Assembly (NCBI GenBank): GCA_000004985.1
Contig: GG738847.1
Reading direction: 5' to 3' (one strand)
Length of the DNA stretch: 64,000 nucleotides
Source: Naegleria gruberi
Lineage: Eukaryota
The stretch's first letter is position 1. The number at the start of each line of letters is the position of its first letter. This document shows, piece by piece, positions 21,944 through 56,803 of this stretch. Below the pieces are notes generated by a model. The model was not told the DNA's origin. It saw only the letters and a list, made by a program, of their open reading frames with translations, and did not search any database. The position numbers and the translations under genes are program-made.

Positions 21944-22094
21944 TTTTTTTGATATTTTGTGATTAATGATGGATGACTGGAAATAGTGATTCGGTTGTTT
22001 TGTAATGTGATTGATATTCAGTGATTGTACTTTTAAAAACTTTGTTTATATTAGTATCATTTGAAATCAATTTAAATTTCATCAATAACCGAAA

Positions 22095-22448
22095 CTAATC
22101 TTCATAACATTCTCGTTCTTTCAAGATACAAACTATAGTAATATCCACAAGTCCAGATGGTGGCGATTTACCAAGAAACGGATTTGGTTTCTCTCTAAAC
22201 AATCCTCTCTCCACAGCATTCATCAATTCCGAAACAAAATTCGAAACATCTACAATAAAATCATCCAATTGATCTTTTAATACTTCTCTGACATTTAATT
22301 CGTTAGATCTTTCCATCAGTCCATCCATCAGTGCCATAATATATTGAGAAAGTATAAGAGGATTAGCCGTAGTGCACTTATCTTGTATTTTGTTAATAAT
22401 CCAATCTTGGATTTCTTGTGCTTTTGAATCATCGTAAAAGTGAGACAT
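22095..22448 (-). CDS. hypothetical small protein (~117 aa)
   Basis: ORF from the first ATG (MSHFYDDSKAQEIQDWIINKIQ...). Helical and possibly PWI-like, but unconfirmed. Confidence 0.45.
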   Translation of the reverse strand: MSHFYDDSKAQEIQDWIINKIQDKCTTANPLILSQYIMALMDGLMERSNELNVREVLKDQLDDFIVDVSNFVSELMNAVERGLFREKPNPFLGKSPPSGLVDITIVCILKERECYED

Positions 22449-22494
22449 TTTCACACCTGCTTGGTCAATCAATTTGTGGTATTTTTTTTGATGA

Positions 22495-31198: not shown

Positions 31199-32395
31199 AT
31201 GTCAAGATGCCCGCAACTACATTCTATTTCCATTATTTGTTTAGTATTGTTGTTGGTTAATCAAGCCTTGTCAAGTTACATTGCTCCGAAAACTTGTTCA
31301 TCATCAACTTCATCAGATTCGTATAAATATTGTGGACGAATTTCAATAACGGAATTAGAAACTAACTTTATCTACTCACAAGTAACAACATTTCCAACAG
31401 ATTTTATATCTGCCAAACCAAATACATGCCTCTCTATCACTCCTTCTAACTTTACCCTTGATGAACAATATCCAAATCATCAAATTATTGGAAACCCTTT
31501 CTTTTCTATCGGAAAGTATTTTAACACAACTTGGTGTACATGTCGATGGAAAAACACAACCTCCATCATTTCTACACGGAGGGAAATATGTGCCACCAAT
31601 CAAGATTCCAAAATATTTTACATTATTTCAGATTCGTATAATGTTGACAAGACGAAAGGATTTATTTTGGTGGATGACATTGTGAATGAAAATTATTTTG
31701 CAAATAATACAATTTTAATGCCAACTGCTTATGATGATAGTGTATTTATTGTAAAAGGACCTAATTTTGCATTGACAAGTTGGAAAAATGGAATTATTGG
31801 AACAGTTTCGAATAATCATCCAAAACTTTTAACAGATACTTCATTTCAATTTCAAATTAGTTCTGTGGGAAGTGGAGATAAGAATGGAATAGGAATCACT
31901 CTGAAAAATCTTTATTCCAATGATTGTGTAACTGCCTCCATTGATCCATTCACATCGGGAATTAAACTCCGAATGCAAACTTGCTCTGGAGTTACAACTT
32001 TGAAGAGGGCATCTCAGAAAGGAGATGATATTGCAAAAATTTATGCAAAACAAAAGTTTTTCTGGACTGGAAAGTTGTTATTTTCATCAGTAATTGCCAA
32101 TTCTTGTTCTGGTCAATTGGAAGCTATTGCAGTGACTAGCACAGTATTTGGATCACCTCATTTTCAATGGAAAGGAGTTCAATTTTTGACACTGAATAGT
32201 TTGAATGAAAGTAATGTGGAAAAGTTTTATTCAACAGCTTGTCTGTACGATCAGGACACTACCCTTCAAAACCAACTTGTTGACAATGATTTAGTGAGAT
32301 TTTCCTCAGCTGTGCTATTGAATCATTCGTCCAGAGTGTTAACTAATGGATTATTACTGATATTGGTATTGTTCATTGGATGCATTGTTTGTTAA
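31199..32395 (+). CDS. secreted / probably GPI-anchored surface protein
   Basis: N-terminal signal peptide (MSRCPQLHSISIICLVLLLVNQALS), Cys- and N-glyc-site-rich body, and a C-terminal hydrophobic tail (LLLILVLFIGCIVC) typical of a GPI signal. Confidence 0.6.
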   Translation: MSRCPQLHSISIICLVLLLVNQALSSYIAPKTCSSSTSSDSYKYCGRISITELETNFIYSQVTTFPTDFISAKPNTCLSITPSNFTLDEQYPNHQIIGNPFFSIGKYFNTTWCTCRWKNTTSIISTRREICATNQDSKIFYIISDSYNVDKTKGFILVDDIVNENYFANNTILMPTAYDDSVFIVKGPNFALTSWKNGIIGTVSNNHPKLLTDTSFQFQISSVGSGDKNGIGITLKNLYSNDCVTASIDPFTSGIKLRMQTCSGVTTLKRASQKGDDIAKIYAKQKFFWTGKLLFSSVIANSCSGQLEAIAVTSTVFGSPHFQWKGVQFLTLNSLNESNVEKFYSTACLYDQDTTLQNQLVDNDLVRFSSAVLLNHSSRVLTNGLLLILVLFIGCIVC

Positions 32396-32455
32396 TATTT
32401 CAGTTTTTCTCAATAATTATTATTATTCTATTGAAATAGAGTTTGAAACATGTAA

Positions 32456-34563
32456 TTACTCTTCTGATGGTGTGGATGGACTTGAGGAATTTTCCTTCTT
32501 TTTTGTTGTAACATTCTTGAGTTTGGTTCCACCTTCTTTCAATAAATTTCCTCCTTGCTTTAATTTGTTCAAACCACCAACACCTCCTTCCTTAAGCAAG
32601 TTTCCACCTTGTTTCAACTTGTTTAGTCCACCTGCTCCTCCAGCTTTCATGAGATTCATTCCTCCCTTACCTCCTTGTTTCAATTTGTTCAAACCACCAA
32701 CTCCTCCCTCTTTCAATAAGTTTCCTCCTTGTTTCAGTTTGTTTAGTCCACCAACACCTCCAGCTCTCATCAAGTGAATTCCACCTTTACCTCCCTTTTT
32801 GAGAATATTGAAACCTTGAGTCATATTTTGCTTTTGCTTATTCATCATGTTACCAATTTGTTTCATGGCTGCCTTTTCCTGTAAATCCTTAAATTCCAAA
32901 AATGTTTTCTTTTGGGCTTTCTTGAAATTTGAAAGAAGTGATTCTTGAATGGATTTGGCCACGAAACCAAGTAAGATACCCAACAATCCAAGACCAATCA
33001 AGACAAAGAAACCAAATGTAATCTTACCATTGGTTGTCTTTGGGTAAAAATCTCCATATCCAATTGTACTCAGAGTTACAAATCTTTTCATAAAATCATT
33101 ACCAAGTATAATTACATATGATTGTAAATAAATTTTCTCCTAAATATTGAAAAAACCTACGAATAATAGAATGCATCATAAAACTCCCAATTTTCCAAAT
33201 AACTAAACAATGCAGCAGCTCCCACAACATATCCTCCCAACAGTAAAATCATGTTAATAATCTGAGTAGCACCTCTATTAAAGAATGAAAACATTTTCTT
33301 TTCCAATGGTGTTAGCTCTGGATTTTTCATATTTGCCTTAATTCTCATCACTTCTTCCAAATCTCGATTTTTAGCTGTTTTGAATGTAATTACAATGGAT
33401 CTCTTAATGTAGAGCATGACTACAAATATTCCAGTACCGAAAGAGTTCATAATGGCACCTCCTACGAATGAAATCCACATACCCATGAGGGATATTCCTA
33501 GAAATCCAAAAAAGACAACCCACAGTTTACCTCCAATAGTAGTTGGTGACATATCTCCGTATCCAATGGTTGATAAGGTAACAATCATGAAATAGACACT
33601 GTTTCCATATGTCCATTTAGGATTAAATGGATCAATAGTGACATTGGCATTTCCTGTCGAATTATCAAATGAATATTCATCTAATGTTGAATTCAATAGA
33701 TTTTCCTTATATGCCAAATAATTCTTATATTCAACATCTTGTTCAATGAACATGACAGCCATAGCACCCAATGCAATGACAGCCATGATTAAGGCAAAGG
33801 AAATTAGCAATTTCAAAATATCTTTTGCAAAATCTTTCAGTGATGGCTTTTGAATATATTCCTTTGAAATGTCACCCATCAATTTATCTGAAAATCCATT
33901 CAATAATTTCATAAATTTCTTTTCCTTGACTTCATCTGCATCAGAATCCAATTCTGATTGAGTATTATCAAGTGTAGGAGCTTCCTCTTCATTGGAAACT
34001 GTTCCAGAGTTGACCAAATCGACTATTACATGTTCTCCCATGAGGTGTTCTTGAGATACTTGTGGAAATTCTCCTTGTTTCTCATCGTTATGACCTATTT
34101 CTCCTGTAAATTGTACATCTTGCTCATTATCCATCACATCCTGATCTAGTTCCGCAAGTGCCAACTCACTAACTCGTTGCTCATGCTCTACACCATTCAT
34201 AAACATGACAAATTCACTATATCCATCAATAAACTCAAACAATCGATCACAAATTCTCAATTTCCTCCTCTCTGCATCATCGCCAAAGTACAATTCCACA
34301 TAGTGTTGAATCATATTTTCAATATTTCCCGAACTTGTTGAATTGCCAAATAACTGATGAATGACATCCCATGAAACGCTCTTCAACGATGAAGGAGATG
34401 CCATTGGTGATACTGCTTCTATCCTTCCTTCATCATTCTCATCATTTTCTAAAGATAATGGTGGTGCTTCAATATAGAAATTACCAGAAAAGTCAACGGA
34501 ATCGTGTTCTCTTCCACACAATACACAAAAACATTCTCTATTCACTGTTTCCAACACTCTCAA
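32456..34563 (-). CDS. two-pore-domain K+ channel (4TM/2P) with C-terminal Gly/Lys-rich tandem repeats, 2 exons
   Basis: Two selectivity filters, TLSTIGYGD in exon 1 and TLSTIGYGD in exon 2, are each flanked by TM helices. A GTAGGT...GAAAAG intron (33084..33160) is in phase 2. The tail holds about six copies of an 18-22-aa repeat (GG.GGLNKLKQGGNLLKEGG) encoded by ~57-63-nt DNA repeats. The 5' end is uncertain because the ATG-initiated upstream ORF hits an in-frame TAA. Confidence 0.8.
32520..32790. repeat. tandem ~57-63-nt coding repeat (K+ channel tail)
   Basis: Directly visible periodicity: ccacc(t/a)cctt...aagtttcc(t/a)ccttg(c/t)tt(t/c)aa(c/t)ttgtt... The opposite-strand ORF 32376..32777 (PP.PP..FNKFPPCFNLF) is its antisense shadow. 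Confidence 0.8.
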
Positions 34564-34995: not shown

Positions 34996-36207
34996 TTATA
35001 TTGTAAGATCTATTAATTGTTTCATTTCAGTGAAGTATTTTGTTCCTTCTTCAGTAATAAAATTGTTTCTAATATCAAGTTTGGTCAATTGTTTCAATTC
35101 ACTAATGTATTTAGCTCCTTCATTACGAATCTTATTGTTATTAATATAGAGATAGATCAATTTCTTCAATTCTCCAATAGGCATAGCTCCTTTATCGCCT
35201 AAATGATTAGTTTTAATATCAAGATAGATCAATTGTTTCAATTCACTTAAATATTGAGCTCCTTCATCTCCAATTCTATTATAAGATAAATCAAGACTTT
35301 TTAATTGTGCCAATTGACCAAAATATTCAAGTCCTTCATCACCAATATCATTTTTACAAATATCAAGATTTTTCAATTGATTCAATGAACTAATGAATTT
35401 AGATCCTTCATTTCCAATACGATTGCTATTAATATGAAGAGTGGTCAATTGTTTCATTTTGCTTACATATTTAGCTCCTTCATCACCAAGCCAATTACTG
35501 GAAATATCAAGACAGGTCAATTGTGTTAATTCACTTAAATATTTAGCTCCTTCAGCACCAATATCATTTTCATCAATAGAAAGAGTGGTCAATTGTTTCA
35601 ATTCACTTATGTATTTAGATCCTTCATTACCAACACGATTGCAAAAAATAATAAGAGTGGTCAATTGTTTCAATTCTCTTAAATGTTTAGCTCCATACTC
35701 AGAAATACCATTACTAGGAATACTAAGATAGGTCAATTGTTTCAATTCACTAATATATCGAACTCCCTCATCACCAATATGACTTCCATAAATCGTAAGT
35801 TTGGTCAATTGTTTCAATTCACTTATATATTTAACTCCTTCTTCATCATCACATCTAATGATAAGTTTAGTTAATGATTTCATCAAGATTAATTTTCTAT
35901 AGGTATCCCTTGTGATCACACCAACTTTAAGAGTTGCAATATTCTGTAAAAATCGGCCACTCATTCCACCAACACCACCAAATCTACAATTCAGATTGAG
36001 ATGATTACATGTTGATAAAATAACATGGAACCACTCTTTGGATACCAATGCACAATTCATGACAATAAATTTAAAATCATCCAAGAAGGACAAAATTTCA
36101 TAAATAATGTCAGTGGGGAATTTATAATCTTGCGACAGTAAGTTCTCCGTACTTGTTTCTGCTTCTTCTTTGTGTGAAAGTTGGATACACATTGTGTGTT
36201 TGTCCAT
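34996..36207 (-). CDS. F-box + RNI-like leucine-rich-repeat protein
   Basis: N-terminal F-box (DIIYEILSFLDDFKFIVMNCALVSKEWFHVI), then about eleven 24-aa LRRs of the form LKQLT.L.I..N.IG.EGAKYISE. Confidence 0.85.
   Translation of the reverse strand: MDKHTMCIQLSHKEEAETSTENLLSQDYKFPTDIIYEILSFLDDFKFIVMNCALVSKEWFHVILSTCNHLNLNCRFGGVGGMSGRFLQNIATLKVGVITRDTYRKLILMKSLTKLIIRCDDEEGVKYISELKQLTKLTIYGSHIGDEGVRYISELKQLTYLSIPSNGISEYGAKHLRELKQLTTLIIFCNRVGNEGSKYISELKQLTTLSIDENDIGAEGAKYLSELTQLTCLDISSNWLGDEGAKYVSKMKQLTTLHINSNRIGNEGSKFISSLNQLKNLDICKNDIGDEGLEYFGQLAQLKSLDLSYNRIGDEGAQYLSELKQLIYLDIKTNHLGDKGAMPIGELKKLIYLYINNNKIRNEGAKYISELKQLTKLDIRNNFITEEGTKYFTEMKQLIDLTI
35050..35880. repeat. 72-bp coding LRR tandem array
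   Basis: A repeated DNA unit ...ttggtcaattgtttcaattcact(t/a)a(a/t)tatt(t/g)agctccttcat(t/c)accaa... recurs every 72 bp. Confidence 0.7.
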
Positions 36208-36653: not shown

Positions 36654-39600
36654 ATGTACATAAAACCATCAAGATCCTCTTCACAGCTGAACAAACACTT
36701 CATATTCCTATTGATTCTCATCATATTGTCCATTTCCTTCATTAATGCACAATCCAAGACAATCATCTTCCTTCCCTTCTGTTCCTCCCTCACAATCTCT
36801 CCAACCAGTAAGGTATTGAGCTCCAACTCACTCTCTCTTACAATATCAGCTCCGAACACTCTGTGGTAGGTTTATCATATATTCGGAATGTTAACATTTG
36901 TAAATTGTTAAGGTTGCCAAAATCAACAGGCCAATATTATCAATTGAACACCTTGACAGCGAGTGATGCTACTGAACAGATCAAGTCACTAGTCGTTCTG
37001 TCTGATCCTAAGGCTGGTGTTGCTAGATCTCCTTCAACTGTTTCTGTTCTATCTGCTTCATCATTTAGTGTTCAATTTACTGGATTGACTAGCAATGCTC
37101 GATTCACATTATTAATTGCTTATGGATTTGCTTATTTGGATGTGGAAACTACCAGTTATGTTCAATTAATTATGATATCCTCACAGTCAGTGTATAACTA
37201 TGCTACAGGAACAGCTCAAATTGAGACATTTGCTTTACAGAACTCGTATGAGAGCTCATTGGGTCAATTTTGTTTATCTAATTTATCTCCATATGCATTG
37301 ACATATCTTTCTCAAATTGATAATATTCGAAACAATGTATTTTCATCTCCATATCTTCAATCTCAAAAATTAATTCTCAATGGTAAATGGAATGGACAAC
37401 CAACTTTACAAAAAATTACAGAATTTGTTTCGAATGGATTCACCTATCAATTGAAGAGTAGTATTGATATCCAATTCCAAGAATTAGCAAATACTCAAAT
37501 CATAATTCCTTTACAATTCAAGAGACATATTGGAGCTGTCTTTGAAAAGATTGATATTGATGATTTCAAGATTAGTGAAAGACCAGCTGATCCGCAAGAA
37601 TTGGAAAGTCTATTCGAAAGGATACGTCAAGAAACTATCTTTTACAAGGTGAGTCTTGATCCTAATACCGCTCCAGTCTCTCAGGAATATTTAACAGGAG
37701 CAGCTGCTGAAACTAATGTTGCCATTCTAATGACCTATGCCTATTACTGGGCAGATTTCTTTGATTGGTATCGTAATCCAATGGTCAGAGTGATAATCAA
37801 GGATGGTATTATTGGAATGATTAGTATTTCAGTGGCAGGTCTCAATTATTTCACATGTCCTTATGGTTCTCTTCGTAGTGAGATACAACACTTTACTCAG
37901 GGAGACTCCTACCATTCGATTGGTTATTCCTCCATCCATTCGATATACACATTTGCCTATGATCAAAAGAATTGGAAAATCAATACGCAAGTGAATATCA
38001 ATACTAATGGAATGGTTGCAAATGTTGCCAGCCTGTCAAATTTTGAAAATTCCTTGAGTTGCATTGATGGAAATTTCAAAGTAACCCTCTCGGATAATGT
38101 ACTAGCAGATTATGAAAGCTTTTTCACTGATAACTATATGATTTCCAAGATTGATACTAGAATGTCCATTCAGTCAATTGAAAATTTTACACTTCTCTAC
38201 GTTGACGATTTGGGAAGTGAATTCACAGGCCCATTAATTACACCAGAGAGTTTCGTTGGAGATTTGCAATTCAATCCAGGATTTTGTGATGAAACTATTG
38301 GTACTGGATTAGGAAATCAATTATCTTACTATTTTTCTTCTAGTGATTTTTCAGTCGAAAGGTTTCCAGAATATTCGACAAGATTGAGCTATGAAAATGG
38401 AGTTTCTTATCTTTCAGATACAAATTCTGTTGGTTTAAAGTATTCCAATCATGAATATTTGCAGGATTTCTCCATAGAAATTGATCAATCTATTCTATTA
38501 TATAAGGAACCCAAAGTTTCATCTGTGAATTTCACATTAATTCCAAATCGTTCAGAATGGAATGAAATGAATGCTACAATTCAAATATTTTCCTTTAACA
38601 GTGGGGATTGGGGTGGTGAATTCACTGTTGAATTGACTTGTTCCTATCCAATCATAATTTCCAATAATTCGCCTCAGAAATTCAACGTGGAGCCAGGACA
38701 AAACTTTACAGCCTTCTTCACTGTCAAGAGTGATTTCGACTCGTGCAAAACTGTATCCCTCCAATCTGTGTGTGATTTCAAAATTTCCATCAAGAAAGAA
38801 CAATTGTGGACTAATCTAGAAAAGGAAATTTCTGCCCATGAATCTGTGGCCATAGATTATGGATATTTCATTCCAAGATGTCAAGCCAAATATAATGAAC
38901 CATTCCTCTGGCTGGAGAATATGACCCTATCCTCTCCATATTTCCAGAGAAGTGCCCATGATGGATTTGTCAACTCAATTCTCGTAGTTTTGAAAACTAA
39001 TAGTTCAGATTTAATCCTTTCGAATATTGCAAGCGGTCTGTTGGCAGATTCTAATAATCCATTCCACTCATGGAAAGATTACTCAATTATTATGCAACAT
39101 GCTGAATATTACATGTTGAACTTTACGATTTCAAGCACAAACGTTGCTAGAATTTTAAGTGAACGAGTTGACCAAACGCTTTACACATTCTCCCTCAATT
39201 TAACTCTATTAGATAATTATATTTGTTGGTCAACAAATGGAAAAGGAGGAATCTTCCCATTTTCCTTTAGTGTTGCCTACGATTGTCCAATCGAGTATAC
39301 CGGTATCCAATGTGATATTCCATTATGTTATGGAATTAATGCAACCAATTATACGAACGTATGTTCAGGTCATGGTGATTGTGTATCGCCAGATTATTGT
39401 TCCTGTCATGCAAATTACACATCTGCCACCTGTTCTGTTCCTATTTGTTATGGTGTTCGTGGAGATAATTTATCTACTTGCTCATCCAAAGGTTCTTGTA
39501 TAGATGCTAATACCTGTACCTGTCAGAATGGTTATACAGGTGTCAATTGTGAAATTCCAATTTGTTTCAATGTTCCAGCTAATTTTTCACATTCATGTTA

Positions 39601-42600
39601 TGGACATGGTAACTGCATTGATCATGATCTTTGTTCATGTAATGATGGATACACTGCTTCATTGAATTGTTCACTTCCAATATGTTATGGATTAGATTCT
39701 AGTCAGCTAATTGTTTGTTCTTCACATGGACAATGTTTGGCTCCAAATAATTGTTCATGTTTTGATGGTTTTACATTCGATAATTGTTCAATTCCAATTT
39801 GTTACAATATTGATGCTTCCAATAGTTCAGTGTGTACTGGATTTGGTGAATGTTATTCTCCAAATAATTGTAAATGTCATGAAAATCATATTGGATTACA
39901 ATGTGAAATTCCAATTTGTTTTGGAGTTCCATCAAATGAAACTCAGTCGTGTAATGGTAATGGACAATGTATTCAATATAATGAATGTGTGTGTCATTTA
40001 GATTATACAGGACTCAATTGCTCCATTCCAATATGTTTTGGAAGTAATGCCACCAACCCAACTGTTTGTTCTTCGCATGGCGTTTGCCAAGCACCAGATC
40101 AATGTCAATGTCATGAAGGATATACTGGAATACAATGTGAAATTCCAATTTGTTTCAACATTCCAGCAACCAATTCCAGCACATGTTCATTCCATGGAGA
40201 ATGTATCGACCATAATCTTTGCACATGTCATGATGGATACACTGCTGCATTGAATTGCTCCCTTCCAATATGTTATGGATTAGATTCTAGTCAATCAATG
40301 GTTTGTTCTTCACATGGTCAATGTTTGGCTCCAAATAACTGTACATGTTTTGATGGTTTTACATTCGATAATTGTTCCATTCCAATTTGTTACAACATAG
40401 ATGCTTCCAATAGTTCAGTATGTAGTGGATTTGGTGAATGTTATTCTCCAAATAATTGTAAATGTCATGAAAATCATATTGGATTACAATGTGAAATTCC
40501 AATTTGTTTTGGCGTGCCATCAAATGAAACTCAAGCTTGCAATGGTAACGGACAATGTATTCAATATAACGAGTGTGTGTGCCACTCAGATTATACAGGA
40601 ATAGACTGTTCAATTCCAATATGTTTTGGAATTAATGCTACTAATCAAAGTCATGTTTGTTTTTCACATGGTATTTGTCAAAAACCAGATCAATGCCAAT
40701 GTCATGAAGGATATACTGGAATGCAATGTGAAATTCCAATTTGTTTCAATATTCCAGCTATTAATTCCAGCACATGTTCATTCCATGGAGAATGCATTGA
40801 TTTCAATCATTGTTCTTGTCATGATGGATACACTGCTTCATTGAATTGTTCACTTCCAATATGTTATGGATTGGATTCTAGTCAGCTAATGGTTTGTTCT
40901 TCACATGGTCAATGTTTGGCTCCAAATAATTGTTCATGTTATGAAGGATATACAGCTGAAAATTGTTCCATTCCAATTTGTTACAACATTGATGCTTCCA
41001 ATAGTTCAGTATGTAGTGGATTTGGTGAATGTACTTTTCCAAATAATTGTAAATGTCATGAAAATCATGTTGGATTACAGTGTGAAATTCCACTTTGTTT
41101 TGGCGTGCCATCAAATGAAACTCAGTCTTGCAATGGTAATGGACAATGTGTTCAATATAATGAATGTGTGTGTCATTCAAATTATACAGGAATAGATTGC
41201 TCAATTCCATTATGTTTCAATATCAATGCCACCAACCCAACTGTTTGTTCTTCGCATGGTATTTGTCAATCACCAGATCAATGCCAATGTCATGAAGGAT
41301 ATACTGGAATGCAATGTGAAATTCCAATTTGTTTCAACATTTCAGCTAATGATTCCAGTACATGTTCATCCCATGGAGAATGTATCGATTTCATGATCTT
41401 TCACTGTCATGATGGATACACTTCAGCAAATTGTTCAATTCCAATATGTTATGGATTAGATTCTAGTCAATCAATGGTTTGTTCTTCACATGGACAATGT
41501 TTGGCTCCAAATAACTGTACATGTTTTGATGGTTTTACATCTGATAATTGTTCAATTCCAATTTGTTACAACATAGATGCTTCCAATAGTTCAGTATGTA
41601 GTGGATTTGGTGAATGTTACTTTTCCAAATAATTGTAAATGTCATGAAAATCATGTTGGATTACAGTGTGAAATTCCACTTTGTTTTGGCGTGCCATCAA
41701 ATGAAACTCAATCTTGCAATGGTAATGGACAATGTGTTCAATATAATGAATGTGTGTGTCATTCAAATTATACAGGAATAGATTGCTCAATTCCATTATG
41801 TTTCAATATCAATGCCACCAACCCAACTGTTTGTTCTTCGCATGGTATTTGTCAATCACCAGATCAATGCCAATGTCATGAAGGATATACTGGAATGCAA
41901 TGTGAAATTCCAATTTGTTTCAACATTTCAGCTAATGATTCCAGTACATGTTCATCTCATGGAGAATGTATCGATCATGATCTGTTGCACATGTCATGAT
42001 GGATACACTTCAGAAAATTGTTCAATTCCAATATGTTATGGATTAGATTCCAGTCAGTCAATGGTTTGCTCCTCGCATGGCCAATGCTTAGCTCCAAATA
42101 ATTGTTCGTGTTTTGAAGGTTTTACATTCGATAATTGTTCCATTCCAATTTGTTACAACATAGACGCCACCAACCAATCAGTATGTAGTGGATTTGGTGA
42201 ATGTTCTTCTCCAAATAATTGTAAATGTCATGAAAATCATGTGGGATTACAATGTGAAATTCCGCTATGTTTTGGAATTGCATCAAATGAAACTTTGGCA
42301 TCGTGCAATGGAAACGGCCATTGTTTTGCAGTGGATTCTTGCTCTTGTAATCAAAATTATACTGGAGCCAATTGTTCTATTCCTATTTGCTTTGACTTCA
42401 ATGCCACCAATTCGAAGGTATGTTCGGGACATGGAAGTTGTTCGAAACCAAACTATTGCGAATGTTTTGAAGGTTATATGGACACCCAATGTGAAACTCC
42501 AATTTGTTTTGATATTCCAGCAACTATGAATAATACCTGTTCTGAAAATGGCATTTGCCAAGATTACAATCATTGTAATTGTAGCTCTGGGTTTACTTCT

Positions 42601-45600
42601 TCAAATTGTTCAATTCCTATTTGTTTCGGTTCGAATGCCACTGACGAAACAGTATGTTCCTCACATGGTCAATGTCTTTCTCCTAATAATTGTTCCTGCA
42701 GTGATGGATACATGCATTCAGATTGTTCTCATCCAATTTGTTTCGGGCTTGAATCAACTAATCGAAACTCTTGTTCTACTCATGGCACTTGCATTTCACC
42801 AAATTCATGTCAATGTGATGGCAATCATGTAGGTGACATGTGCGAAATTCCACTTTGTTTCAATATCCCGGCCAATCATAACTCAACTTGCAGCTCAAGT
42901 GGAAAATGCATTGGTGTGAATTTGTGTGAATGTTATGGAAATTTCACAGGAATGAACTGTTCTGTTCCAATTTGTTTTGATGAGAATTCAACTTCCATTA
43001 TGAGTTGCTCGTCGAGAGGAAGATGTATTGGACCCAACCTGTGTGAATGTCAAGTTGGATATACTGGTAGCGTTTGTGAGTATCCTGTTTGTTACGGTTT
43101 CTATTCGGAAGATGTAAATTCATGTTCAGGACATGGAGAATGTATTGACTATAACAAATGTCAATGTGAAAATGGGTACGTTACTGAGAATTGTTCCATT
43201 CCTGTGTGTTTTGGTTTGAATAGTTCAGATTCCAATGTTTGTGCTTCCCATGGCGATTGCTTGTCACCAAATAATTGTTCATGCCATGAAGGATTTACAT
43301 CAATCAATTGTTCCATTTCAATTTGTTATAATTCACCTGCCACTGACCCATTTGCATGCAATGGAAAAGGAAATTGTGTAAATCCAAATGAATGCGCCTG
43401 TCAAGAAGGTAACATAGGATTACAATGTGAGATTCCACTTTGTTTTGGCGTGCCATCAAATGAAACTCAGTCTTGTAGTGGTAATGGAGAATGTATTCAA
43501 TATAATGAATGTATGTGTCATTCAAATTTTACAGGACTCAATTGTTCCATTCCAATATGTTTTGGTATAAATGCCACTGATCAAAGTCACGTTTGTTTTT
43601 CACATGGTATTTGTCAAGAACCAGATCAGTGTCAGTGTCATGAAGGATATACTGGAATACAATGTGAAATTCCAATTTGTTTCAATATTCCAGCAACCAA
43701 TTCCAGTACCTGTGCATCCAATGGAGTTTGCATTGATTTCAATAATTGTTCTTGTCTTGATGGATACACTTCGGAAAATTGCTCCCTCCCAATATGTTAT
43801 GAATTGGATTCTGGTAAATCAATGGTTTGTTCTTCACATGGTCAATGTTTGGCTCCAAATAATTGTACATGCCTTGAAAGATTTACATTCGATAATTGCT
43901 CCATTCCAATTTGTTACAATATTGATGCTTCAAATAGTTCAGTATGTAGTGGATTTGGTGAATGTTCTTCTCCAAATAATTGCAAATGTCATGAAAATCA
44001 TATTGGATTACAATGTGAAATTCCACTTTGTTTTGGAATTCCATCAAATGAAACTCAGTCGTGTAATGGTAATGGACAATGTATTCAATATAATGAATGT
44101 GTGTGTAATTCAGATTATACAGGAATAGACTGTTCAATTCCAATATGTTTTGGAAGTAATGCCACCAACCTAACTGTTTGTTCTTCGCATGGTATTTGTC
44201 AATCACCAGATCAATGTCAATGCCAAGAAGGATACACAGGTACCAACTGTGAAATTCCCATTTGTTTCAACATTCCAGCTAATGATTCCAGTACATGTTC
44301 ATCCAATGGAGAGTGCATTGATTTCAATAATTGTTCTTGTCATGATGGATACACTTCAGAAAATTGTTCAATTCCAATATGTTTCAATTTGAATAGTACT
44401 GATTCTAGTGTTTGTAACTCTAATGGAATTTGTACTTCCCCTGACAAGTGTCAATGCCAAGAAAATTTCACAGGTGAAAATTGCTCAATTCCAATATGTT
44501 TCGGATTGGCAGCAAACTCAAGCGGGGCATGCTCCGCATCTGGAAGTTGTGTTTATCCCAATACATGCCTCTGCAACCAAGGAATCATTGGCATTAATTG
44601 TGAAATACCTTCCTGTTTTGGAATATTCCAAAATAATAGCCAATCCTGCTCAGGAAATGGAATTTGCATTGAACTGAACAAATGCTCATGCTACCTAAAC
44701 TTCACAGGTGAATCCTGCTTAATTTCTGCATGTAATGGTATTGCCTCTAATGATAGCTCTGTTTGTTCCGGAAAAGGAAAATGCACAGCTCCAAATCTTT
44801 GTGAATCATGTGAGGAAAATTACTTTGGAGAATGGTGTGAAATTTCACAATGTTTTGGAATATTCTCGAATCAGAGTCAAGTTTGTTCTGAAAATGGAAA
44901 GTGTGAATCTTACAATAATTGTAATTGCTCAATGGGTTATGTTGGGGAAAATTGTAATATTCCTGTATGCTTTAAAATTAATTCAACCGATGAAAATGTT
45001 TGTAATTCTAATGGAATTTGTACTTCTCCTGATTTGTGTTCATGTAATTCCAAATATGGAGGTTTAGAATGTTCAGAACCGAAATGTTTTGGAAAAACAA
45101 CATTAGAAGGTGCATGCAGCTCGAAAGGTAATTGCACACAACCAGATTCATGTACTTGTGAGAAAGGTTTCTTTGGTATTTCATGTGAATTGCATTCTTG
45201 TTTTGGAATTCAATTGAATGATTCGAGTGTGATTTGTTCTGGACATGGTGAATGCAAATCTCTGGACGAATGTGAATGTGACAGTGGTTACTTAGGTGAA
45301 TCATGCTCCATCCACACCTGTTTTGGGATTACATTCAATGAGAGTGGTGTTTGCAGTGGAAATGGAAGTTGCTCAAGTTTGGACAACTGTACCTGTTATG
45401 GAGATGGAAAATTCTATGCAAATTGTACTTTAATTCCAAGTGATTCTCCAATAATTGATAGTGATGTACCTTCGAATCATACAGAAATATCCAATAATTC
45501 AAGTTCTTATCCAAATTGCTTTAACATTTCGGCAAATCATTCGAATGTTTGCAATGGAAATGGAAATTGCACAAGTGAAAATGAATGCAAATGCAGAGAG

Positions 45601-47835
45601 GGATATTTTGGTGGGGAATGTTCTCTATTTGCATGTTTTGGAAAGGAATCAGCTGATTCAAGTGTTTGTTCATCCAATGGAATATGCGCGAGTCCAAATA
45701 CTTGTAAATGTCGACCAGAAAGATATGGCTCTCAGTGTCAACTTGTCAAATGTTTTGAAATTCTTTCTAATCAGTCCAATGTTTGTTCCAGTAAGGGTTC
45801 ATGTCAAGATACCAACGCATGCATATGTAATGAGGGCTATTTCGGCCCCATGTGTAATATCACAAGTTGTGAAGGAATTTTGAGTAATAATTCTCAAGTT
45901 TGTAATGGAAGTGGACAATGCACTCATTACAACACTTGCCAATGTAAGGAAGGATTCATTGGATTGAACTGCCAATTCACCAAATGCAACTCTACATCGT
46001 GTAGGCATGGAAGTTGCATCACTACCTCTCAGTGTGAATGCGAAAGTGGATGGACAAGCTCGGAATGCAATCTTCCTATTTGTTACGATTTGTTGGCAAG
46101 TGACTCGAATGTTTGTTCTACACATGGCAAATGTATAGCTCCAAATAAGTGTAACTGCTCCACAAATCCATTGTACATGGGTGATAAGTGCCAATACTTA
46201 CAATTAGATAGTTTGCAATGTAGTATTAATCCATCACTCAATTTGATACCAATTGAGTGGACAATTTCAGGATTGGATAAAATAACATTTGATATGAGCT
46301 CGAAGGAAATACTTGTTAGAAACAGTATCCCATACAGTACATCTCTCCATTCCAAATCAAAATTCAACTACGAGCTCAATATTTACAACACTGGAAAGCG
46401 ATCTTTCAATTATCAAATTAATTCATTCTGTGAAAATGGAATTTCATTCAAACAATTGGGAATTTCTTCTCAATTCGGATTATTACAAGAAGGAAACAAT
46501 GCAAATATTAAGGATTTACAAAATATTGGATTTGCTCTCTTTTGGAATGATGAAAGTTTGAAATATGAAGATATTAAATGTCATGTCGAATTAATAGTCA
46601 ATCCGAAAGATCAATTCGATGAATGTCAACACTACGATTCGAATACTGAAACATCCTCCAAATATAATATTACTCTCATATTGGAACGTACAAATGTTTG
46701 TCAATTTTTGAAAGAAACAGATTTACCACTGACCTTTTCAAGCACTCAATTGTCAACCATGAGTGAAATAGCTCTAATTGATGAAAATATTCTTTCAGAT
46801 AACGATATTCTCAAAATTATTAATACATTCACTCAAAAGAGGAATAACTGGCAAATAATTAATAAGGACAACAGTACTCTTCAAGCTAACATCTTGTTAA
46901 CTGCCCAGTTGAGTAATCCAAACAATGAATTGGGACTTTTTGTTCCATCTCTGATATGTAAGGATGAAAGAATTGTTGATGACATAGAATTTACCACAGA
47001 ATATCTTTCCAATCAATCTCCATTCTCCATTTCTCACTCTCTACAAAAGATTCAATTCCAATTCAATGTTACAATTAAGAATGTTTCGAATTATGTTGAT
47101 TATGGTAGAGTGAGAGGAGGAAAGGAAGGAATGGCAACAGTTCTCATTGAGGACATGCTCCTTAATTGTTCTCTCATTCTCCTACCAAATCCATCTGAGT
47201 GTTGGTCCAACACGAATAGAAATTCCACATTCTCCAAATATATCATTTCACACTTTACACTGCCAATTGTTTCTGGTGAATTTTCATTCTTCCAAGCTGT
47301 GAGATCCTTCGAAATAGGTATCATTACACTTACCTACACTTGTATGGGCATTGGTTTTGCATCCATGATATGCACGACCAAAGTTCCTCGAGATCGAAAA
47401 CATTCTCTGCTCCAACTTGTAGAATTTGTCAAGGAAAAGAGAAGAAACAAACTCAACTCTACATCTGATGACTCCAAACCACTCCTAGAGAATCAAATTG
47501 ATAGGCCATACTGTGAAAATTGTGGTCATCACACTCGGAAGAAAGCTCGTTATGCCATTCGTGTGGAAAATTATGATGCTAATTGCGAAATGTTCATTTG
47601 TGAGAATCAGGTATGTTTTGAAGCCATGATCTCTCTCCACAATAGAGGATACTCCCATCACTATCAATGTTTCGACTTGGATAAAGAAGAAGATTGTCAA
47701 CTCATGATTGAAACACCATTCAAGACACTTGCTGATAATTTTGATGAGTCGGATATTTATGAATCTATGGATATTGAATTTCCAATACCTTCCGATATCA
47801 ATGATGATGAAGAAGATGACTCTGATTTATTCTAA
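36654..47835 (+). CDS. giant type I membrane protein with ~75 six-Cys EGF-like modules; interrupted by two +1 frameshifts
   Basis: Exon 1 (36654..36865) encodes a signal peptide (HFIFLLILIILSISFINAQS). A 47-nt GTAGGT...GTTAAG intron joins it in phase to exon 2 at 36913. An ~800-aa N-terminal domain is followed by EGF-like units of the form C.IPIC(Y/F)x4-9C.xHGxCxxPxxCxCxxGYTGxxC, then a stem, a TM helix (IGIITLTYTCMGIGFASMICTT) and an acidic cytoplasmic tail. The frame breaks at about 41617 and 41984, so the ORF track splits it into 36863..41632, 41577..41999 and 41812..47835. Confidence 0.75.
39640..44400. repeat. ~580-bp super-repeat (5 EGF modules each) array with very high inter-copy nucleotide identity
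   Basis: The module order YGLDSSQ / YNIDASN / FGVPSNETQ / FGINATN / FNIPATN recurs about eight times. Copies are nearly identical at the DNA level and become more divergent downstream to about 46200. Confidence 0.8.
41040..42000. repeat. near-identical direct tandem duplication (~580 bp, two copies)
   Basis: 41040..41620 and 41620..42000 differ at only a few positions. The junction copy carries two single-base insertions relative to the other copies: tgtTactttt instead of tgtactttt, and ctGttgc instead of ctttgc. Confidence 0.75.
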
Positions 47836-47937: not shown

Positions 47938-49248
47938 ATGGGTCAACCAATGAATAGACAATTACAGCACACTGGTTTGATATCAGAAAGTGTAAATGAA
48001 GTATTCGCATCGGAAGATGAAACTCTCTCGGAAAATGTAACAATTTCTGATCAGAATAACCCTCTATTTGTTTTTGATATATTGTCTGAGATTTTCTCAT
48101 ATTTGGATAATTTTACAGTTTATTTGAGATGTGTATTGGTTTGTAAAACTTGGAGATATTGTGCTTGGCATTTGTTGGATGAATTTAATTTTAGATATGA
48201 TGATTTGGATTTGTTATTTTATGGGAAAGAGGGAGAACGAATTGCCAAGCAATTTAATCCTTCTCTTGGAAGATCGGAGGCAGTCCGATTGAATAATACT
48301 CAAATGTTGGAGTACATGTTGAATTTAATTGTGAGAAATGCTAGATATTTGAAAAAGTTTAATGTTGTTGGAGCACAACAGAATGAGGATATTAAAAAGA
48401 TGATCAATGATGAGAGAATTGCACTCTTGATGAGATCTTGCTCTGAAAACTTGGAAATGTTGGATTTATCTTCTTGCGATAATTTGAAAGAGGTTTCGTA
48501 TAGTCAAATACTGAACAAGTGTAGAAAAACTTTGAAATCACTCAAACTCAGATGTAGTTTAAGCATTAGAGATACCTTTGCTAAGGATTATATTTCAACA
48601 CTGGAATCTTTGGAGTATCTCAATCTTTCGAAATGTTGTTACATTGGACTTTATAGTTTAATACCAATTTCTACCAATTGTACGAAATTGAGAGTTTTGG
48701 ATGTGTCTGGATGCACGTCATTTTATGGATTTAGCTTTTTAAGGAATTGTACAGTATTGGAAGAGTTACATGTACAAACAACATATTTTTCCTCAGATGA
48801 TTTCCAATACATTCCAAATTCATTGAAAATTTTGGATGTGCAAAATTGCGAACAAGTGAGAAGGTTGAATCATGTAGCAAACTTGGAACACTTGGAGGAA
48901 ATCAACCTTTCCTACAATAACATTCAACTTGAAGGAGAGTGGAAGAATCACGTTATGAAATGGAAAATTCTAAAGGCAATTTCAGTACCAGTTGGCTGCG
49001 AGTTATTAGACCAAACACCATACTTGAAACATTTAGAAATTGGTTTCCTTGAAGCCTCTGCTAGCATTACAATGCTAAGTGTTCTCAAGAGGTCTCATTC
49101 ATTCACAGAGGAAGATTCAACAGCCAAGCTCAGCACCAATCTGAAACATTTACTCATAACTGATTCACACCTTACTCACTCTTTTGTTGAAGAATTGAAA
49201 TACTATTGTCCTTCAATAGTATTAAAAACTCGACGTTGCAATATCTAG
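47938..49248 (+). CDS. F-box / Cys-containing LRR protein (FBXL-like)
   Basis: F-box (LFVFDILSEIFSYLDNFTVYLRCVLVCKTWRY), then cysteine-containing LRRs (LDLSSCDNLKEVS, LNLSKCCYIGL, LDVSGCTSF). Confidence 0.8.
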   Translation: MGQPMNRQLQHTGLISESVNEVFASEDETLSENVTISDQNNPLFVFDILSEIFSYLDNFTVYLRCVLVCKTWRYCAWHLLDEFNFRYDDLDLLFYGKEGERIAKQFNPSLGRSEAVRLNNTQMLEYMLNLIVRNARYLKKFNVVGAQQNEDIKKMINDERIALLMRSCSENLEMLDLSSCDNLKEVSYSQILNKCRKTLKSLKLRCSLSIRDTFAKDYISTLESLEYLNLSKCCYIGLYSLIPISTNCTKLRVLDVSGCTSFYGFSFLRNCTVLEELHVQTTYFSSDDFQYIPNSLKILDVQNCEQVRRLNHVANLEHLEEINLSYNNIQLEGEWKNHVMKWKILKAISVPVGCELLDQTPYLKHLEIGFLEASASITMLSVLKRSHSFTEEDSTAKLSTNLKHLLITDSHLTHSFVEELKYYCPSIVLKTRRCNI

Positions 49249-54720: not shown

Positions 54721-54956
54721 ATGATCTACGATATCCATTCTGACTTGTTCTTGAGATTTGTTAGAAACAAGACTAACCGTGCTCACTTGAAGTATGTATA
54801 AAAACATTATGATAGTAATATTTATTCCGTTATATTAAATTCTTCACTATAACTTCATCATGACGTTATTCAATATTAAATAATAATAGGAAGCAAGAAA
54901 AGAGAGAAAAGAAGGAAGCTGGTAAGGCTACTGGCGACAAGATGGAAGACGAATAA
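54721..54956 (+). CDS. small (46-aa) two-exon ORF with preferred-codon usage; function unknown
   Basis: atg..ttg aa|GTATGT...AATAATAG|g aag..taa joins in phase 2. The product is MIYDIHSDLFLRFVRNKTNRAHLKKQEKREKKEAGKATGDKMEDE. Its codons match the highly-expressed set, but there is no family assignment. Confidence 0.35.
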
Positions 54957-55133
54957 ATTGTCTGAACCCCAATAAAACCTACTCCTCCTAAATTATTTAA
55001 ATAATATAAAAACTAATTTTAAAATTAATATCTGATTAACGACTAATATCTACAGTACGTGAAGAGAGTTTTCAACGTAGACATACAACAACAAAATTCC
55101 TTCTTAGTATTCATCGAAAAAGTAACAATCAAT

Positions 55134-56438
55134 TTATTCCTTCTTGGCTTCTGTGGTAGCTGAAGGAACAACTTCCTTCTTTGTTGGCATGGTAAAGGAG
55201 AGTTTACGAACAGAGAGGAATTCCTTGACTTGTTCATCGGTAATCTTCTTTCTTCTCTCTTGATGTTCGGCAACCATCTTTTGCAAGAGGTCAATCAATG
55301 CTCCCTTGACTTGACCAGTCAACATCTTACCAGTTGAGTACTTTTCACGAATATCTTCTAATTGGACATCATCTTCCAAGAAGAATTGCAAATATTGATA
55401 AGGAACGTCAACAGCCAAGTTAGCTCCATACTTTTCTTGGTCTTCCTTGGTGGCACCACCTCCAGAGAAGGCATGTTTGTTAATCTTATCCTTAATTTGC
55501 TTTGGAGTATCTGTCAAGAAGATTGAAGAAGTGTCAGATGAGGATGACATTTTCTTGTTAGCACCTTGCAAAGCAGGGAAGAATTTGGAGTGAATGAGAG
55601 CTGGCTTTTGGAAACCCAATTTTGGAGCAACATCTCTTGTCACTCTAAAGTATGGATCTTGATCAATAGCACATGGAATCAAACACATAATATCATTCTT
55701 TCTCTTTGTCTTCTTTTGCTTCTTTTTATCTTCAGCTGTTTCTGGGAAAATGTGTGGGAATGAAGTATAGAAGGAAGGAGCAGCTTGAATAGCAGGGAAT
55801 GAGAATTTACCAATATTATCGGAATCTTCAAAACCAAAAACACCTTTAACTTGACTACAAGTTACAGACTTTTCAATTTCGAGAACAGTTCTATATAAAT
55901 GTCCCATATAATCCAAATTGGAGAAGATGAAAGTCTTACTCATATCAAAACCACAGGCAATAATATCCTTGGCGTTTTCATAAGTCAAACGATGAGCTTC
56001 TTCCAATTCCAACTTTTTCCACAAGAACTTTTCATCATCGGTCATTTGAACTACCAAAGGAACATCAAAAACATCTTGCAAATATTTAGTAAACATGAAA
56101 GGAATCAAGTGACCCAAGTGCATTGATTCACTGGATGGTCCTCTACCAGTATATAAATAAAAAGGTTTGCCTTGTTCATAGTAATCCAACAATTTGTGCA
56201 TATCACGATGTGAGAAGAAAATTCCTCTCTTCAAAAAGTGGTGGACAGGCTTCTTGGTAACACGTTCAATACGTTCTAACAAATCTTCAGAAATTGCTTG
56301 AGAACCGAATTGATTAATTAATTTACCATAATCGACACCATCATCACCAGCATCAACATCCCAAGGGGTGACTATTTGTTCCTTCTTTTCTTGTTGTTGT
56401 TCAGTGCTTTGTATTGGTTCTTGTGGTTGTTCGGACAT
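55134..56438 (-). CDS. WARS1: tryptophanyl-tRNA synthetase (cytoplasmic type)
   Basis: HIGH-type motif in [18 protein letters not shown] and a KMSSSS (KMSKS) motif. The whole catalytic core is collinear with eukaryotic TrpRS. GC3-rich preferred codons. Confidence 0.9.
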
Positions 56439-56803
56439 TTTTTTGATTTTGAATTTTTAATTATTAATTATTTTTAAATTTTTATTGAAAATATGAGTAA
56501 TGAGAAAATTTAAGAATAGAACGATGATGAAATAATGGCAAAAGGTGCAAATGTAAAAACGAAGGTTTTGTCTTCCTTCAAATCTCGGAGAGGGACGAAT
56601 GAAATTGAACAAGGATTTTGCTTGAATTTCAAAATCTATTTTTATGATCAAAGATGAATTGTTTACAATTACATTGAATCTGAATCCTCACCTCTGTGGA
56701 GTGTTATCATTGAAGCTTTGTTCTTTTGAGTATGGTTTAAGATTCATTTCTGGGCAGAAGGACTTTTTCTAATAAAATTGTTCTGAGAACATCACATATA
56801 ATC

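What the first reader, a model, noticed from the sequence alone, without database searches (positions are those of the whole stretch)
41040..42000. Two single-base insertions break the reading frame exactly within the youngest tandem duplicate of the EGF array
41040..41620 and 41620..42000 are a nearly perfect direct duplication. Relative to every other copy, the junction copy has an extra T at about 41617 (tgtTactttt) and an extra G at about 41984 (ctGttgc). These split a single ~3,700-aa frame into three overlapping ORFs. Either this is an assembly or sequencing error in a hard-to-resolve repeat, or the gene is a recent pseudogene, or it is a pair of truncated paralogues. If the breaks are real, the secreted N-terminal half would be expressed without its membrane anchor.
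Basis: seen in the sequence. Interest (0 to 1): 0.55.

Follow-up and report, generated by a model that had tools for sequence, protein, structure and literature searches.

The report
Frame-broken giant EGF-repeat membrane gene
Two one-base insertions split a conserved 3,710-residue Naegleria gruberi surface-protein gene into three reading frames. They sit just inside the ends of a freshly homogenised repeat patch, so they are most likely draft-assembly errors or at most a very recent lesion, which is ordinary rather than new biology.

Summary
An extra T at 41618 and an extra G at 41984 shift the frame by +1 each and create three overlapping ORFs. Removing both bases and a 47-nt 5' intron gives one stop-free CDS of 3,710 aa: signal peptide, ~840-aa N domain, 58 six-Cys EGF units, ~370-aa juxtamembrane domain, TM helix, Cys-rich tail.

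The window is the 8x Sanger draft of N. gruberi NEG-M. N. fowleri FDP41_011210 and Willaertia magna ABK040_013066 carry both the N and C domains in one intact protein. So this is one gene, not two truncated paralogues.

The "duplicate" is a ~436-nt patch (40991-41426 / 41576-42013) inside ~88%-identical super-repeats. Within the patch the copies differ by 2 synonymous substitutions and 5 indels; the flanks show 43 substitutions and no indels. Both frame breaks lie in hairpin loops just inside the patch ends. Copy A is also scrambled at the site-2 hairpin and holds the array's only missing Cys.

Nothing else in 11 kb is degraded, and pN/pS is low.

Best reading: consensus errors in a hard-to-place repeat (~0.6). 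Rival: genuine very recent mutation (~0.35). Only reads or resequencing can decide. I found no N. gruberi protein model for this gene.

The parts
36654..36865 (+). Exon 1: ATG plus signal peptide (MYIKPSRSSSQLNKHFIFLLILIILSISFINAQ, 36654-36752) and the start of the N domain
   Evidence: The spliced product aligns colinearly with N. fowleri FDP41_011210 across the exon junction (query 36-872).
36866..36912 (+). Predicted 47-nt GT..AG intron (gtaggt...ttaag)
   Evidence: removing it joins exon 1 in frame to ORF1. This is inferred, with no transcript evidence. The N. fowleri orthologue also has a single short 5' intron (85 nt), but at a different position.
36913..39316 (+). N-terminal extracellular domain (~840 aa) with no Pfam or PDB match
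   Evidence: It is 35% identical (E 1e-141) to N. fowleri P0145 residues 63-911 and 26% identical (E 5.5e-51) to W. magna P0144.
39317..46191 (+). Array of about 58 EGF-like units (39 aa / 117 nt, six Cys each), partly organised in 5-unit (585-nt) super-repeats
   Evidence: unit table. Pfam EGF_TEN 8.8e-55, EGF_Teneurin 3.4e-44, EGF_2 6e-40; 347 Cys, i.e. 58x6 minus 1.
40991..41426 (+). Copy A of the homogenised patch (units a17-right to d20)
41389..41406 (+). In-frame scrambled segment in copy A (+TT, -G, -A relative to the canonical sequence; reads FMIFH). It holds the only missing Cys of the array.
41576..42013 (+). Copy B of the homogenised patch (units a22-right to d25); it carries both frame breaks
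41617..41618 (+). Frame break 1: extra T (TGT[T]ACTTTT). ORF1 then stops at TAA 41630-41632.
   Evidence: A 48-nt exact match to the e10-a11 repeat type ends at 41619, and the exact match to copy A starts at 41620.
41984..41984 (+). Frame break 2: extra G (CT[G]TTGC). ORF2 then stops at TGA 41997-41999.
   Evidence: It lies in the loop of a quasi-palindromic hairpin (dG -9.8 kcal/mol, z -3.6) found only in units 20 and 25.
46207..47313 (+). Juxtamembrane extracellular C domain (~370 aa) with no Pfam or PDB match
   Evidence: In the search of 1.84 billion representatives the 542-aa C-terminal query (this domain plus TM and tail) hit only N. fowleri and W. magna. The same query is 42% identical (E 2.5e-122) and 32% identical (E 6e-71) to those two proteins.
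47314..47376 (+). Predicted transmembrane helix IGIITLTYTCMGIGFASMICT, followed by the basic stretch KVPRDRKH
   Evidence: The motif is conserved in P0144 and P0145. The helix is assigned by eye from hydrophobicity; no predictor was run.
47377..47835 (+). Cytoplasmic tail with the conserved Cys-rich motif CENCGH..C..C..C (47512-47628) and an acidic C-terminus; stop at 47833-47835

Best explanation
The locus 36654-47835 is a single gene of Naegleria gruberi NEG-M. It encodes a 3,710-aa type I membrane protein: signal peptide, a lineage-specific N domain, 58 teneurin/tenascin-type EGF units, a lineage-specific juxtamembrane domain, one TM helix and a Cys-rich cytoplasmic tail. From this architecture it is probably a surface adhesion or receptor protein.

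The EGF array evolves by concerted evolution. One ~436-nt patch was recently copied between adjacent 585-nt super-repeats. The two +1 insertions that break the frame, and the scrambled segment in copy A, are most likely consensus errors of the 8x Sanger draft.

The proposed error mechanism is as follows. Reads from two almost identical copies (and possibly two haplotypes) cannot be placed unambiguously. They disagree only where the patch ends and where hairpins degrade base-calling. A gapped pile-up there can keep both alternative bases.

Shown: the gene is one unit, the insertions are present in the assembly, and their position relative to the patch ends and hairpins is as described. Inferred: that they are artefacts and the gene is intact in the organism.
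For: One gene:
- N. fowleri FDP41_011210 (2,986 aa) and W. magna ABK040_013066 (2,171 aa) each contain both the N domain (E 1e-141 / 5.5e-51) and the C domain (E 2.5e-122 / 6e-71) in the same order.
- The N. fowleri array plus C domain is one 2,823-codon exon.

Artefact lean:
- (a) The window is the Sanger draft scaffold. Flanking ORFs are exact matches to XP_002682218 and others on a 941,567-bp contig, and the sequencing technology is given as 'Sanger' in PMC9928731.
- (b) Inside the patch there are 2 substitutions (both synonymous) versus 5 indel differences. The flanks have 43 substitutions and 0 indels. That spectrum is typical of alignment or consensus error, not of coding-sequence evolution.
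- (c) Both breaks lie within about 20-45 nt of the patch ends. At site 1, B's sequence TGTTACTTTTCC equals the gapped 'union' of the TGTTA-TTCTCC type seen to its left and the TGT-ACTTTTCC type seen to its right. An in-register biological recombinant could not have 13 nt there.
- (d) Site 2 and the scramble in copy A fall in the loop or stem edge of the same strong hairpin, which is unique to these two units. Site 1 lies in the a-unit hairpin loop.
- (e) There is no other decay. 347 of 348 expected Cys are present. There are no stops in the 1,949 codons downstream although 5.4% of single substitutions would create one, implying <~1% neutral divergence since any inactivation. pN/pS is about 0.06-0.2 in units on both sides.
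Against: - No reads, transcripts or second assembly could be examined. The exact look-ups and both metagenome scans found no independent copy.
- The 'union' argument at site 2 needs an unobserved CTG variant.
- An 8x Sanger consensus is usually accurate, so five indel errors in 600 nt require a local problem that I infer but cannot see.
- The two synonymous differences show that A and B were built from different reads, so the copies were not simply collapsed.
- Hairpin-bounded template switching is a real mutational mechanism that predicts a similar picture.
- NEG-M is a long-cultured axenic strain, so loss of a surface receptor is plausible.
Confidence: 0.6

Rival explanations
1. The insertions are real and very recent, either fixed or on one haplotype of NEG-M. 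They would have arisen during or after the gene-conversion or template-switch event that homogenised the patch. Replication or repair synthesis stalled at the two hairpins and switched templates imprecisely. The gene is then a nascent pseudogene, or it yields a 1,643-aa secreted N-terminal fragment lacking the anchor.
For: - Both sites lie in hairpin loops just inside the patch ends.
- The extra G adds a 3-bp TGT/ACA mini-stem in the loop, changing dG from -9.8 to -10.9. A gain in complementarity like this is what quasi-palindrome template switching produces (own knowledge: Ripley-type models).
- Gene conversion is known to be mutagenic and prone to template switching (own knowledge: Hicks, Kim and Haber 2010).
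- The array is a mosaic of conversion patches at offsets 588, 1176, 1179 and 4112.
- Heterozygosity is reported for N. gruberi (PMC9928731).
- No N. gruberi protein model for this locus was found.
Against: - It needs three or more independent or complex indel events in 600 nt, with none elsewhere in 11 kb.
- The indel:substitution ratio of 5:2 is far from normal mutation spectra.
- Heteroduplex-based conversion keeps register, so it does not by itself explain a 13-nt junction at site 1.
- There is no sign of relaxed constraint.
- The orthologues are intact.
Confidence: 0.35
2. The breaks are real and are read through by programmed +1 ribosomal frameshifting. Site 1 is followed by AAA-TAA, the Euplotes-type shift motif, and site 2 by TCA-TGA.
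For: - After site 1 the shifted frame reads ...TCC AAA TAA.
- A +1 shift there would give GECYFSKNC, which keeps the Cys spacing of GECYSPNNC (my reading of the sequence).
Against: - AAA-TAA arises automatically from the conserved CCAAATAATTGT (P-N-N-C) present in every a-unit once any +1 insertion lies upstream, so the motif carries no information.
- A shift at TCA-TGA would replace C-T-C-H by L-H-M-S and destroy two disulfide Cys.
- The orthologues need no recoding.
- No such mechanism is known in Heterolobosea (own knowledge).
Confidence: 0.02
3. ORF1 and ORF3 are two separate functional genes: a gene fission or a pair of truncated paralogues.
For: Each is a long open frame, 1,589 and 2,007 codons.
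Against: - The two halves are the N and C parts of single proteins in two other genera.
- ORF3 has no signal peptide and begins inside an EGF unit.
- The 366-nt stretch between the breaks is a perfect EGF sequence in the third frame.
- The two ORFs are contiguous, with no intergenic space.
Confidence: 0.02

Closest known systems
Naegleria fowleri FDP41_011210 (XP_044566993.1, 'EGF-like domain-containing protein', 2,986 aa) and Willaertia magna ABK040_013066 (KAL9658154.1, 2,171 aa)
   Same: They share the colinear architecture: signal peptide, ~850-aa N domain, EGF array, ~400-aa juxtamembrane domain, TM helix (..FEIG..TY....GFAS..) and a tail with CENCGH...C..C. The N domain is 35% / 26% identical and the C domain 42% / 32% identical. 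Each has one short 5' intron and then one giant exon.
   Different: The orthologues have an uninterrupted frame. They carry fewer EGF units: about 36 in N. fowleri and about 15 in W. magna from Cys counts, against 58 here. The intron position differs. The neighbouring genes are not syntenic. All three proteins are uncharacterised.
Metazoan teneurin/tenascin-type EGF arrays (Pfam EGF_TEN PF25024, EGF_Teneurin PF23106, EGF_2 PF07974)
   Same: The six-Cys ~39-aa EGF unit is repeated head to tail in a large extracellular region of a membrane protein.
   Different: Only the EGF module matches. Pfam detects no FN3, fibrinogen, YD-repeat or NHL domains, and the N and C domains match nothing in Pfam or the PDB. 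The similarity is at module level and does not indicate orthology.
Frameshift artefacts in draft assemblies at near-identical tandem repeats or heterozygous sites (own knowledge)
   Same: Isolated 1-nt indels lie inside an otherwise perfectly conserved ORF. They are located where two almost identical copies start to differ, and indels outnumber substitutions.
   Different: This could not be verified here because no reads or quality values are available.
Gene-conversion- or template-switch-associated mutagenesis at quasi-palindromes (own knowledge: Ripley 1982; Hicks, Kim and Haber 2010)
   Same: A patch copied from a neighbouring repeat has small indels near its ends, in hairpin loops. One insertion increases loop complementarity.
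   Different: It requires several events at once, and no population or read data are available to show that the lesions exist in the organism.

Membership tests
EGF-like repeat proteins (teneurin/tenascin-type EGF) | Repeated ~30-40-aa modules with six conserved Cys that match curated EGF profiles above threshold | tested here: met
   EGF_TEN 186 bits (cut-off 65), EGF_Teneurin 149 bits, EGF_2 136 bits; 58 units, 347 Cys.
Teneurin or tenascin proper | Family-specific non-EGF domains (teneurin intracellular domain, NHL/YD shell, Tox-GHH; or tenascin FN3 plus fibrinogen globe) | tested here: not met
   the N domain (872 aa) and the C-terminal 542 aa give no Pfam hit at E<=0.01; no PDB sequence relatives.
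Orthologue group of N. fowleri FDP41_011210 / W. magna ABK040_013066 | Significant colinear similarity of both lineage-specific domains (N and C) within one protein | tested here: met
   N domain E 1e-141 / 5.5e-51 and C domain E 2.5e-122 / 6e-71, in the same subject proteins and the same order.
Orthologue group of N. fowleri FDP41_011210 / W. magna ABK040_013066 | One uninterrupted reading frame from the N domain to the tail | tested here: not met
   there are two +1 breaks in this assembly. The frame is continuous only after removing 41618 and 41984.
Orthologue group of N. fowleri FDP41_011210 / W. magna ABK040_013066 | Conserved gene neighbourhood | tested here: not met
   (Stk19, adaptin, D123, RLI, XendoU, UBX and TPR neighbours) versus (LRR, K+ channel, F-box LRR, PTEN, TrpRS).
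Unitary pseudogene | Disabling lesions present in the organism's DNA | not testable with these tools
   The lesions are present in the assembly. No reads or second assembly are available.
Unitary pseudogene | Signs of relaxed constraint: extra stops or indels, raised pN/pS, loss of conserved residues | tested here: not met
   no stop in 1,949 downstream codons, implying d<~0.0095; pN/pS about 0.06-0.2; 347 of 348 Cys retained.
Programmed +1 ribosomal frameshift | A shift site conserved in orthologues, with a product that keeps the protein's essential residues | tested here: not met
   the orthologues are single ORFs; a shift at site 2 would lose two Cys. AAA-TAA is an automatic by-product of the conserved CCAAATAATTGT.
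Assembly/consensus artefact | Errors localised to places where read placement or base-calling is ambiguous, with indel-biased differences | tested here: met
   (5 indels and 2 substitutions in the patch; 0 indels and 43 substitutions in the flanks). (junction at site 1). (hairpins).
Assembly/consensus artefact | Raw reads or quality values contradict the consensus | not testable with these tools
   There is no access to the JGI traces.

The most novel reading that the evidence does not exclude
The indels are genuine and were made by the same hairpin-bounded template-switch or gene-conversion event that homogenised the 436-nt patch. On this reading the assembly caught concerted evolution of a repeat array in the act of breaking a conserved 3,710-aa surface-receptor gene, or of converting it into a secreted 1,643-aa form, in the laboratory strain NEG-M.
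Probability: 0.25. Interest if true: 0.4.

Novelty: new member of a known kind. Interest (0 to 1): 0.15.

Why it matters
The practical value is for annotation. The largest coding unit in this 64-kb window has no N. gruberi protein model that I could find. It has intact orthologues in N. fowleri and Willaertia. Proteome-based presence/absence comparisons could therefore score this family as missing from N. gruberi when it is only broken or unmodelled; one example is the '599 genes absent in N. gruberi' reported in PMC9928731.

The locus also illustrates how concerted evolution in EGF arrays creates patches that either mislead assemblers or occasionally damage genes.

If the lesions were real, NEG-M would lack a membrane-anchored form of a conserved heterolobosean surface protein. 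That would matter for anyone using this strain to study adhesion or phagocytosis. Neither reading opens a new question.

Tried and rejected
- Tandem Repeats Finder found nothing. The 585-nt period exceeds its 500-nt limit and the 117-nt units are too diverged.
- The word-indexed protein search with the 800-aa N domain returned no hit. This was a false negative: BLAST later gave E 1e-141 to the N. fowleri orthologue. The same index found only <=44%-identical EGF proteins for the corrected junction.
- Exact look-ups of ORF1 (from its first in-frame ATG), ORF2 and ORF3 found no record. I therefore could not see how, or whether, JGI/NCBI modelled this locus. GenBank numbering (EFC49469 to EFC49474) leaves room for one more + strand model between 32.4 and 47.9 kb that I could not retrieve.
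- Two JGI metagenome scans, one with a DNA 23-mer and one with back-translated peptides, found no copy. The only other N. gruberi-like sequence is a 2.7-kb ENA contig (98.8% identical) that covers TrpRS, not this gene.
- A brute-force GT..AG search for introns that could bridge the frame breaks returned dozens of spurious solutions everywhere, so it is uninformative. Introns are rejected on other grounds: the breaks are 1-nt differences between otherwise identical copies, and the orthologue's array is one exon.
- AlphaFold2 on the C domain with a 3-sequence alignment gave pLDDT 43.5. That is too poor for a fold search, so none was run.
- False tandem duplication of two haplotypes was rejected: the segments between the patch copies are only ~88% identical.
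- Simple collapse of copy A reads onto copy B was rejected, because two substitutions distinguish the copies.
- Literature searches found nothing on this protein or on frameshifts in the N. gruberi assembly.
Full report
**What the window is.** The TrpRS ORF at 55134-56438(-) is 100% identical to the NCBI Naegleria gruberi protein. Six of ten tested ORFs are exact matches to N. gruberi NEG-M RefSeq proteins. One of them is the F-box/LRR gene immediately downstream of the locus (XP_002682218). All lie on one 941,567-bp contig. That genome is a Sanger assembly of strain NEG-M, and heterozygosity has been reported for the species (PMC9928731). The window has no N runs and is 32-36% GC.

**Checking the observation.**
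- Copy B reads GGTGAATGT[T]ACTTTTCC at 41609-41626 and CATGATCT[G]TTGCAC at 41976-41991.
- Among six aligned e+a unit pairs, only B has the extra column at site 1.
- Among the d-units, B is one base longer than the canonical CAT GAT CTT TGC ACA TGT.
- Each insertion is a +1 shift. The frames run 36863-41632, 41577-41999 and 41812-47835.
- Upstream, an ATG at 36654 opens an exon encoding a signal peptide. It is joined to ORF1 by removing a 47-nt GT..AG intron at 36866-36912.
- With the intron and the two bases removed, the CDS is 11,133 nt, or 3,710 aa, with no internal stop.

**What the gene is.** The protein has these parts:
- a signal peptide;
- an ~840-aa N domain;
- 58 EGF units of 39 aa (347 Cys; Pfam EGF_TEN 8.8e-55, EGF_2 6e-40);
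- a ~370-aa juxtamembrane domain;
- a TM helix followed by basic residues;
- a Cys-rich, acidic tail.

The N and C domains match nothing in Pfam or the PDB. A full HMMER search of 1.84 billion representatives with the C-terminal 542 aa found exactly two clusters. They are N. fowleri FDP41_011210 (2,986 aa) and Willaertia magna ABK040_013066 (2,171 aa). Both contain the N domain (E 1e-141 / 5.5e-51) and the C domain (E 2.5e-122 / 6e-71) in one colinear protein.

In N. fowleri the gene is a 163-codon exon, an 85-nt intron and a single 2,823-codon exon. ORF1, ORF2 and ORF3 are therefore pieces of one gene. The 'two truncated paralogues' option is rejected. ORF3 also lacks any signal peptide.

**Anatomy of the repeat.** The array is partly organised in five-unit super-repeats of 585 nt (a-b-c-d-e). 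The near-identical region is only A 40991-41426 versus B 41576-42013. The surrounding parts of the same super-repeats are 82-95% identical. It is the only pair with >=99% identity in the array. Elsewhere the best matches are <=98.3% and come from offsets of 588, 1176, 1179 and 4112 nt, a mosaic typical of concerted evolution. The sequence just left of site 1 (41443-41619) is closest to e10-a11, 1,176 nt upstream, not to copy A.

**Where the lesions sit.**
- Across the patch, A and B differ by two substitutions, both synonymous, and by five indel differences: T at 41617/8, TT at 41389-90 in A, and G 41984, G 41987 and A 41991 in B.
- The flanks show 19 and 24 substitutions respectively and no indel.
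- Site 1 is about 42 nt inside the 5' end of the patch. The site-2 cluster is about 23-30 nt inside the 3' end.
- At site 1, a 48-nt exact match to the TGTTA|TTCTCC type ends at 41619, and the exact match to copy A (TGT|ACTTTTCC) begins at 41620. B's 13-nt TGTTACTTTTCCA is therefore the gapped union of the two 12-nt types.
- At site 2, B's extra G and A's in-frame scramble both fall in the loop or stem edge of a quasi-palindrome, GAATGTATCGATCATGA...TCATGATGGATACA. A's scramble reads FMIFH and holds the single missing Cys of the array. The quasi-palindrome has dG -9.8 kcal/mol and z -3.6, and the other d-units lack it (dG -2 to -3, z>0).
- Site 1 lies in the loop of the weaker a-unit hairpin.

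**State of the rest of the gene.**
- No stop occurs in the 1,949 codons after site 2, although 5.4% of possible single substitutions would create one. That bounds any period of neutrality at roughly <1% divergence.
- Units on both sides of the breaks show strong purifying selection. For example, e21 versus e26 gives pS 0.51 and pN 0.03.
- The lesions are therefore either extremely young or not real.

**Weighing the explanations.** I favour consensus error (about 0.6) for these reasons:
- The difference spectrum is indel-dominated.
- All anomalies cluster in 603 nt, inside the two patch copies.
- They lie just inside the patch ends and in hairpins, where Sanger base-calling and read placement are weakest.
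- The site-1 junction is out of register in a way that gapped pile-ups produce and heteroduplex recombination does not.
- The assembly is an unfinished 8x draft of a heterozygous organism.

The main rival (about 0.35) is a real, very recent event. Hairpin-bounded template switching during repair could copy the patch and leave imprecise junctions, and the extra G does increase loop complementarity. A long-cultured axenic strain could tolerate losing a surface receptor, or the lesion may be on one haplotype only. If it is real, the product is a 1,643-aa secreted fragment ending ...GECYFSK.

Programmed +1 frameshifting is very unlikely. The AAA-TAA after site 1 is an automatic consequence of the conserved CCAAATAATTGT. 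A shift at site 2 would remove two Cys, and the orthologues need no recoding.

**Independent data.** I found none.
- The exact look-ups returned nothing, and the word-indexed searches and two metagenome scans gave no N. gruberi-like copy.
- The one N. gruberi-like metagenome contig (98.8% identity, ERZ929261) covers only TrpRS.
- No N. gruberi protein model containing the N domain, the junction or the C domain turned up in the searched collections.
- GenBank numbering nevertheless suggests that one + strand model may exist between 32.4 and 47.9 kb.

**Verdict.** It concerns a single conserved but uncharacterised giant EGF membrane protein gene. The frame breaks are an ordinary phenomenon: most likely draft consensus errors at a homogenised repeat patch, otherwise a nascent pseudogene or heterozygous null. 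Interest is low, and the practical value is in fixing the annotation.

Noticed in passing
window 41389-41406: Copy A of the patch has an in-frame +2/-1/-1 scramble (CIDFMIFHCHDGY instead of CIDHDLCTCHDGY). It removes the only missing Cys of 348 expected in the array. It sits in the same hairpin as frame break 2.
   Followed up: yes
window 36654-47835: I could find no N. gruberi protein model covering the N domain, the junction or the C domain, although flanking genes are annotated. GenBank numbering (EFC49469 to EFC49474) leaves room for one unretrieved + strand model in 32.4-47.9 kb.
   Followed up: partly
window 36866-36912: There is a putative 47-nt GT..AG intron right after the signal-peptide exon. 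The N. fowleri orthologue also has one short 5' intron (85 nt), but about 60 codons further downstream in aligned position, so the position is not conserved.
   Followed up: partly
window 54929-57592 / L001: An ENA metagenome contig (ERZ929261, PRJEB11402) is 98.8% identical over 2.7 kb, with 15 mismatches and 7 gaps. It encodes an identical TrpRS. This indicates a second N. gruberi-like strain in an environmental sample.
   Followed up: partly
window 32456-34563 (-): Two adjacent minus-strand ORFs each carry a K+-channel pore motif (TIGYGD), suggesting a two-pore channel split by an intron. The downstream ORF ends in a Gly-rich repeat (GGVGGLNKLKQGGNLLKEG, about four copies), whose opposite strand gives a spurious Pro-rich ORF at 32376-32777.
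   Followed up: no
window 34996-36207 (-) and 47938-49248 (+): The EGF gene is flanked on both sides by leucine-rich-repeat genes: ISELKQLT-type repeats upstream and an F-box/LRR gene downstream. A DUF4116 repeat protein lies at 210-2096.
   Followed up: no
window 39317-46191: The EGF array is a mosaic of short high-identity patches between non-adjacent units (offsets 588, 1176, 1179 and 4112 nt, 96-98% identical). This indicates repeated gene conversion rather than a simple duplication series.
   Followed up: partly
(method): The word-indexed homology search missed an orthologue that BLAST scores at E 1e-141 (35% identity over 860 aa). A 'no hit' from that tool is therefore weak evidence for proteins this diverged.
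   Followed up: yes
window 22001-24000: There is a local GC dip to 0.279 over the 530-aa ORF at 22495-24087 (-), which has no exact match in the protein collection.
   Followed up: no
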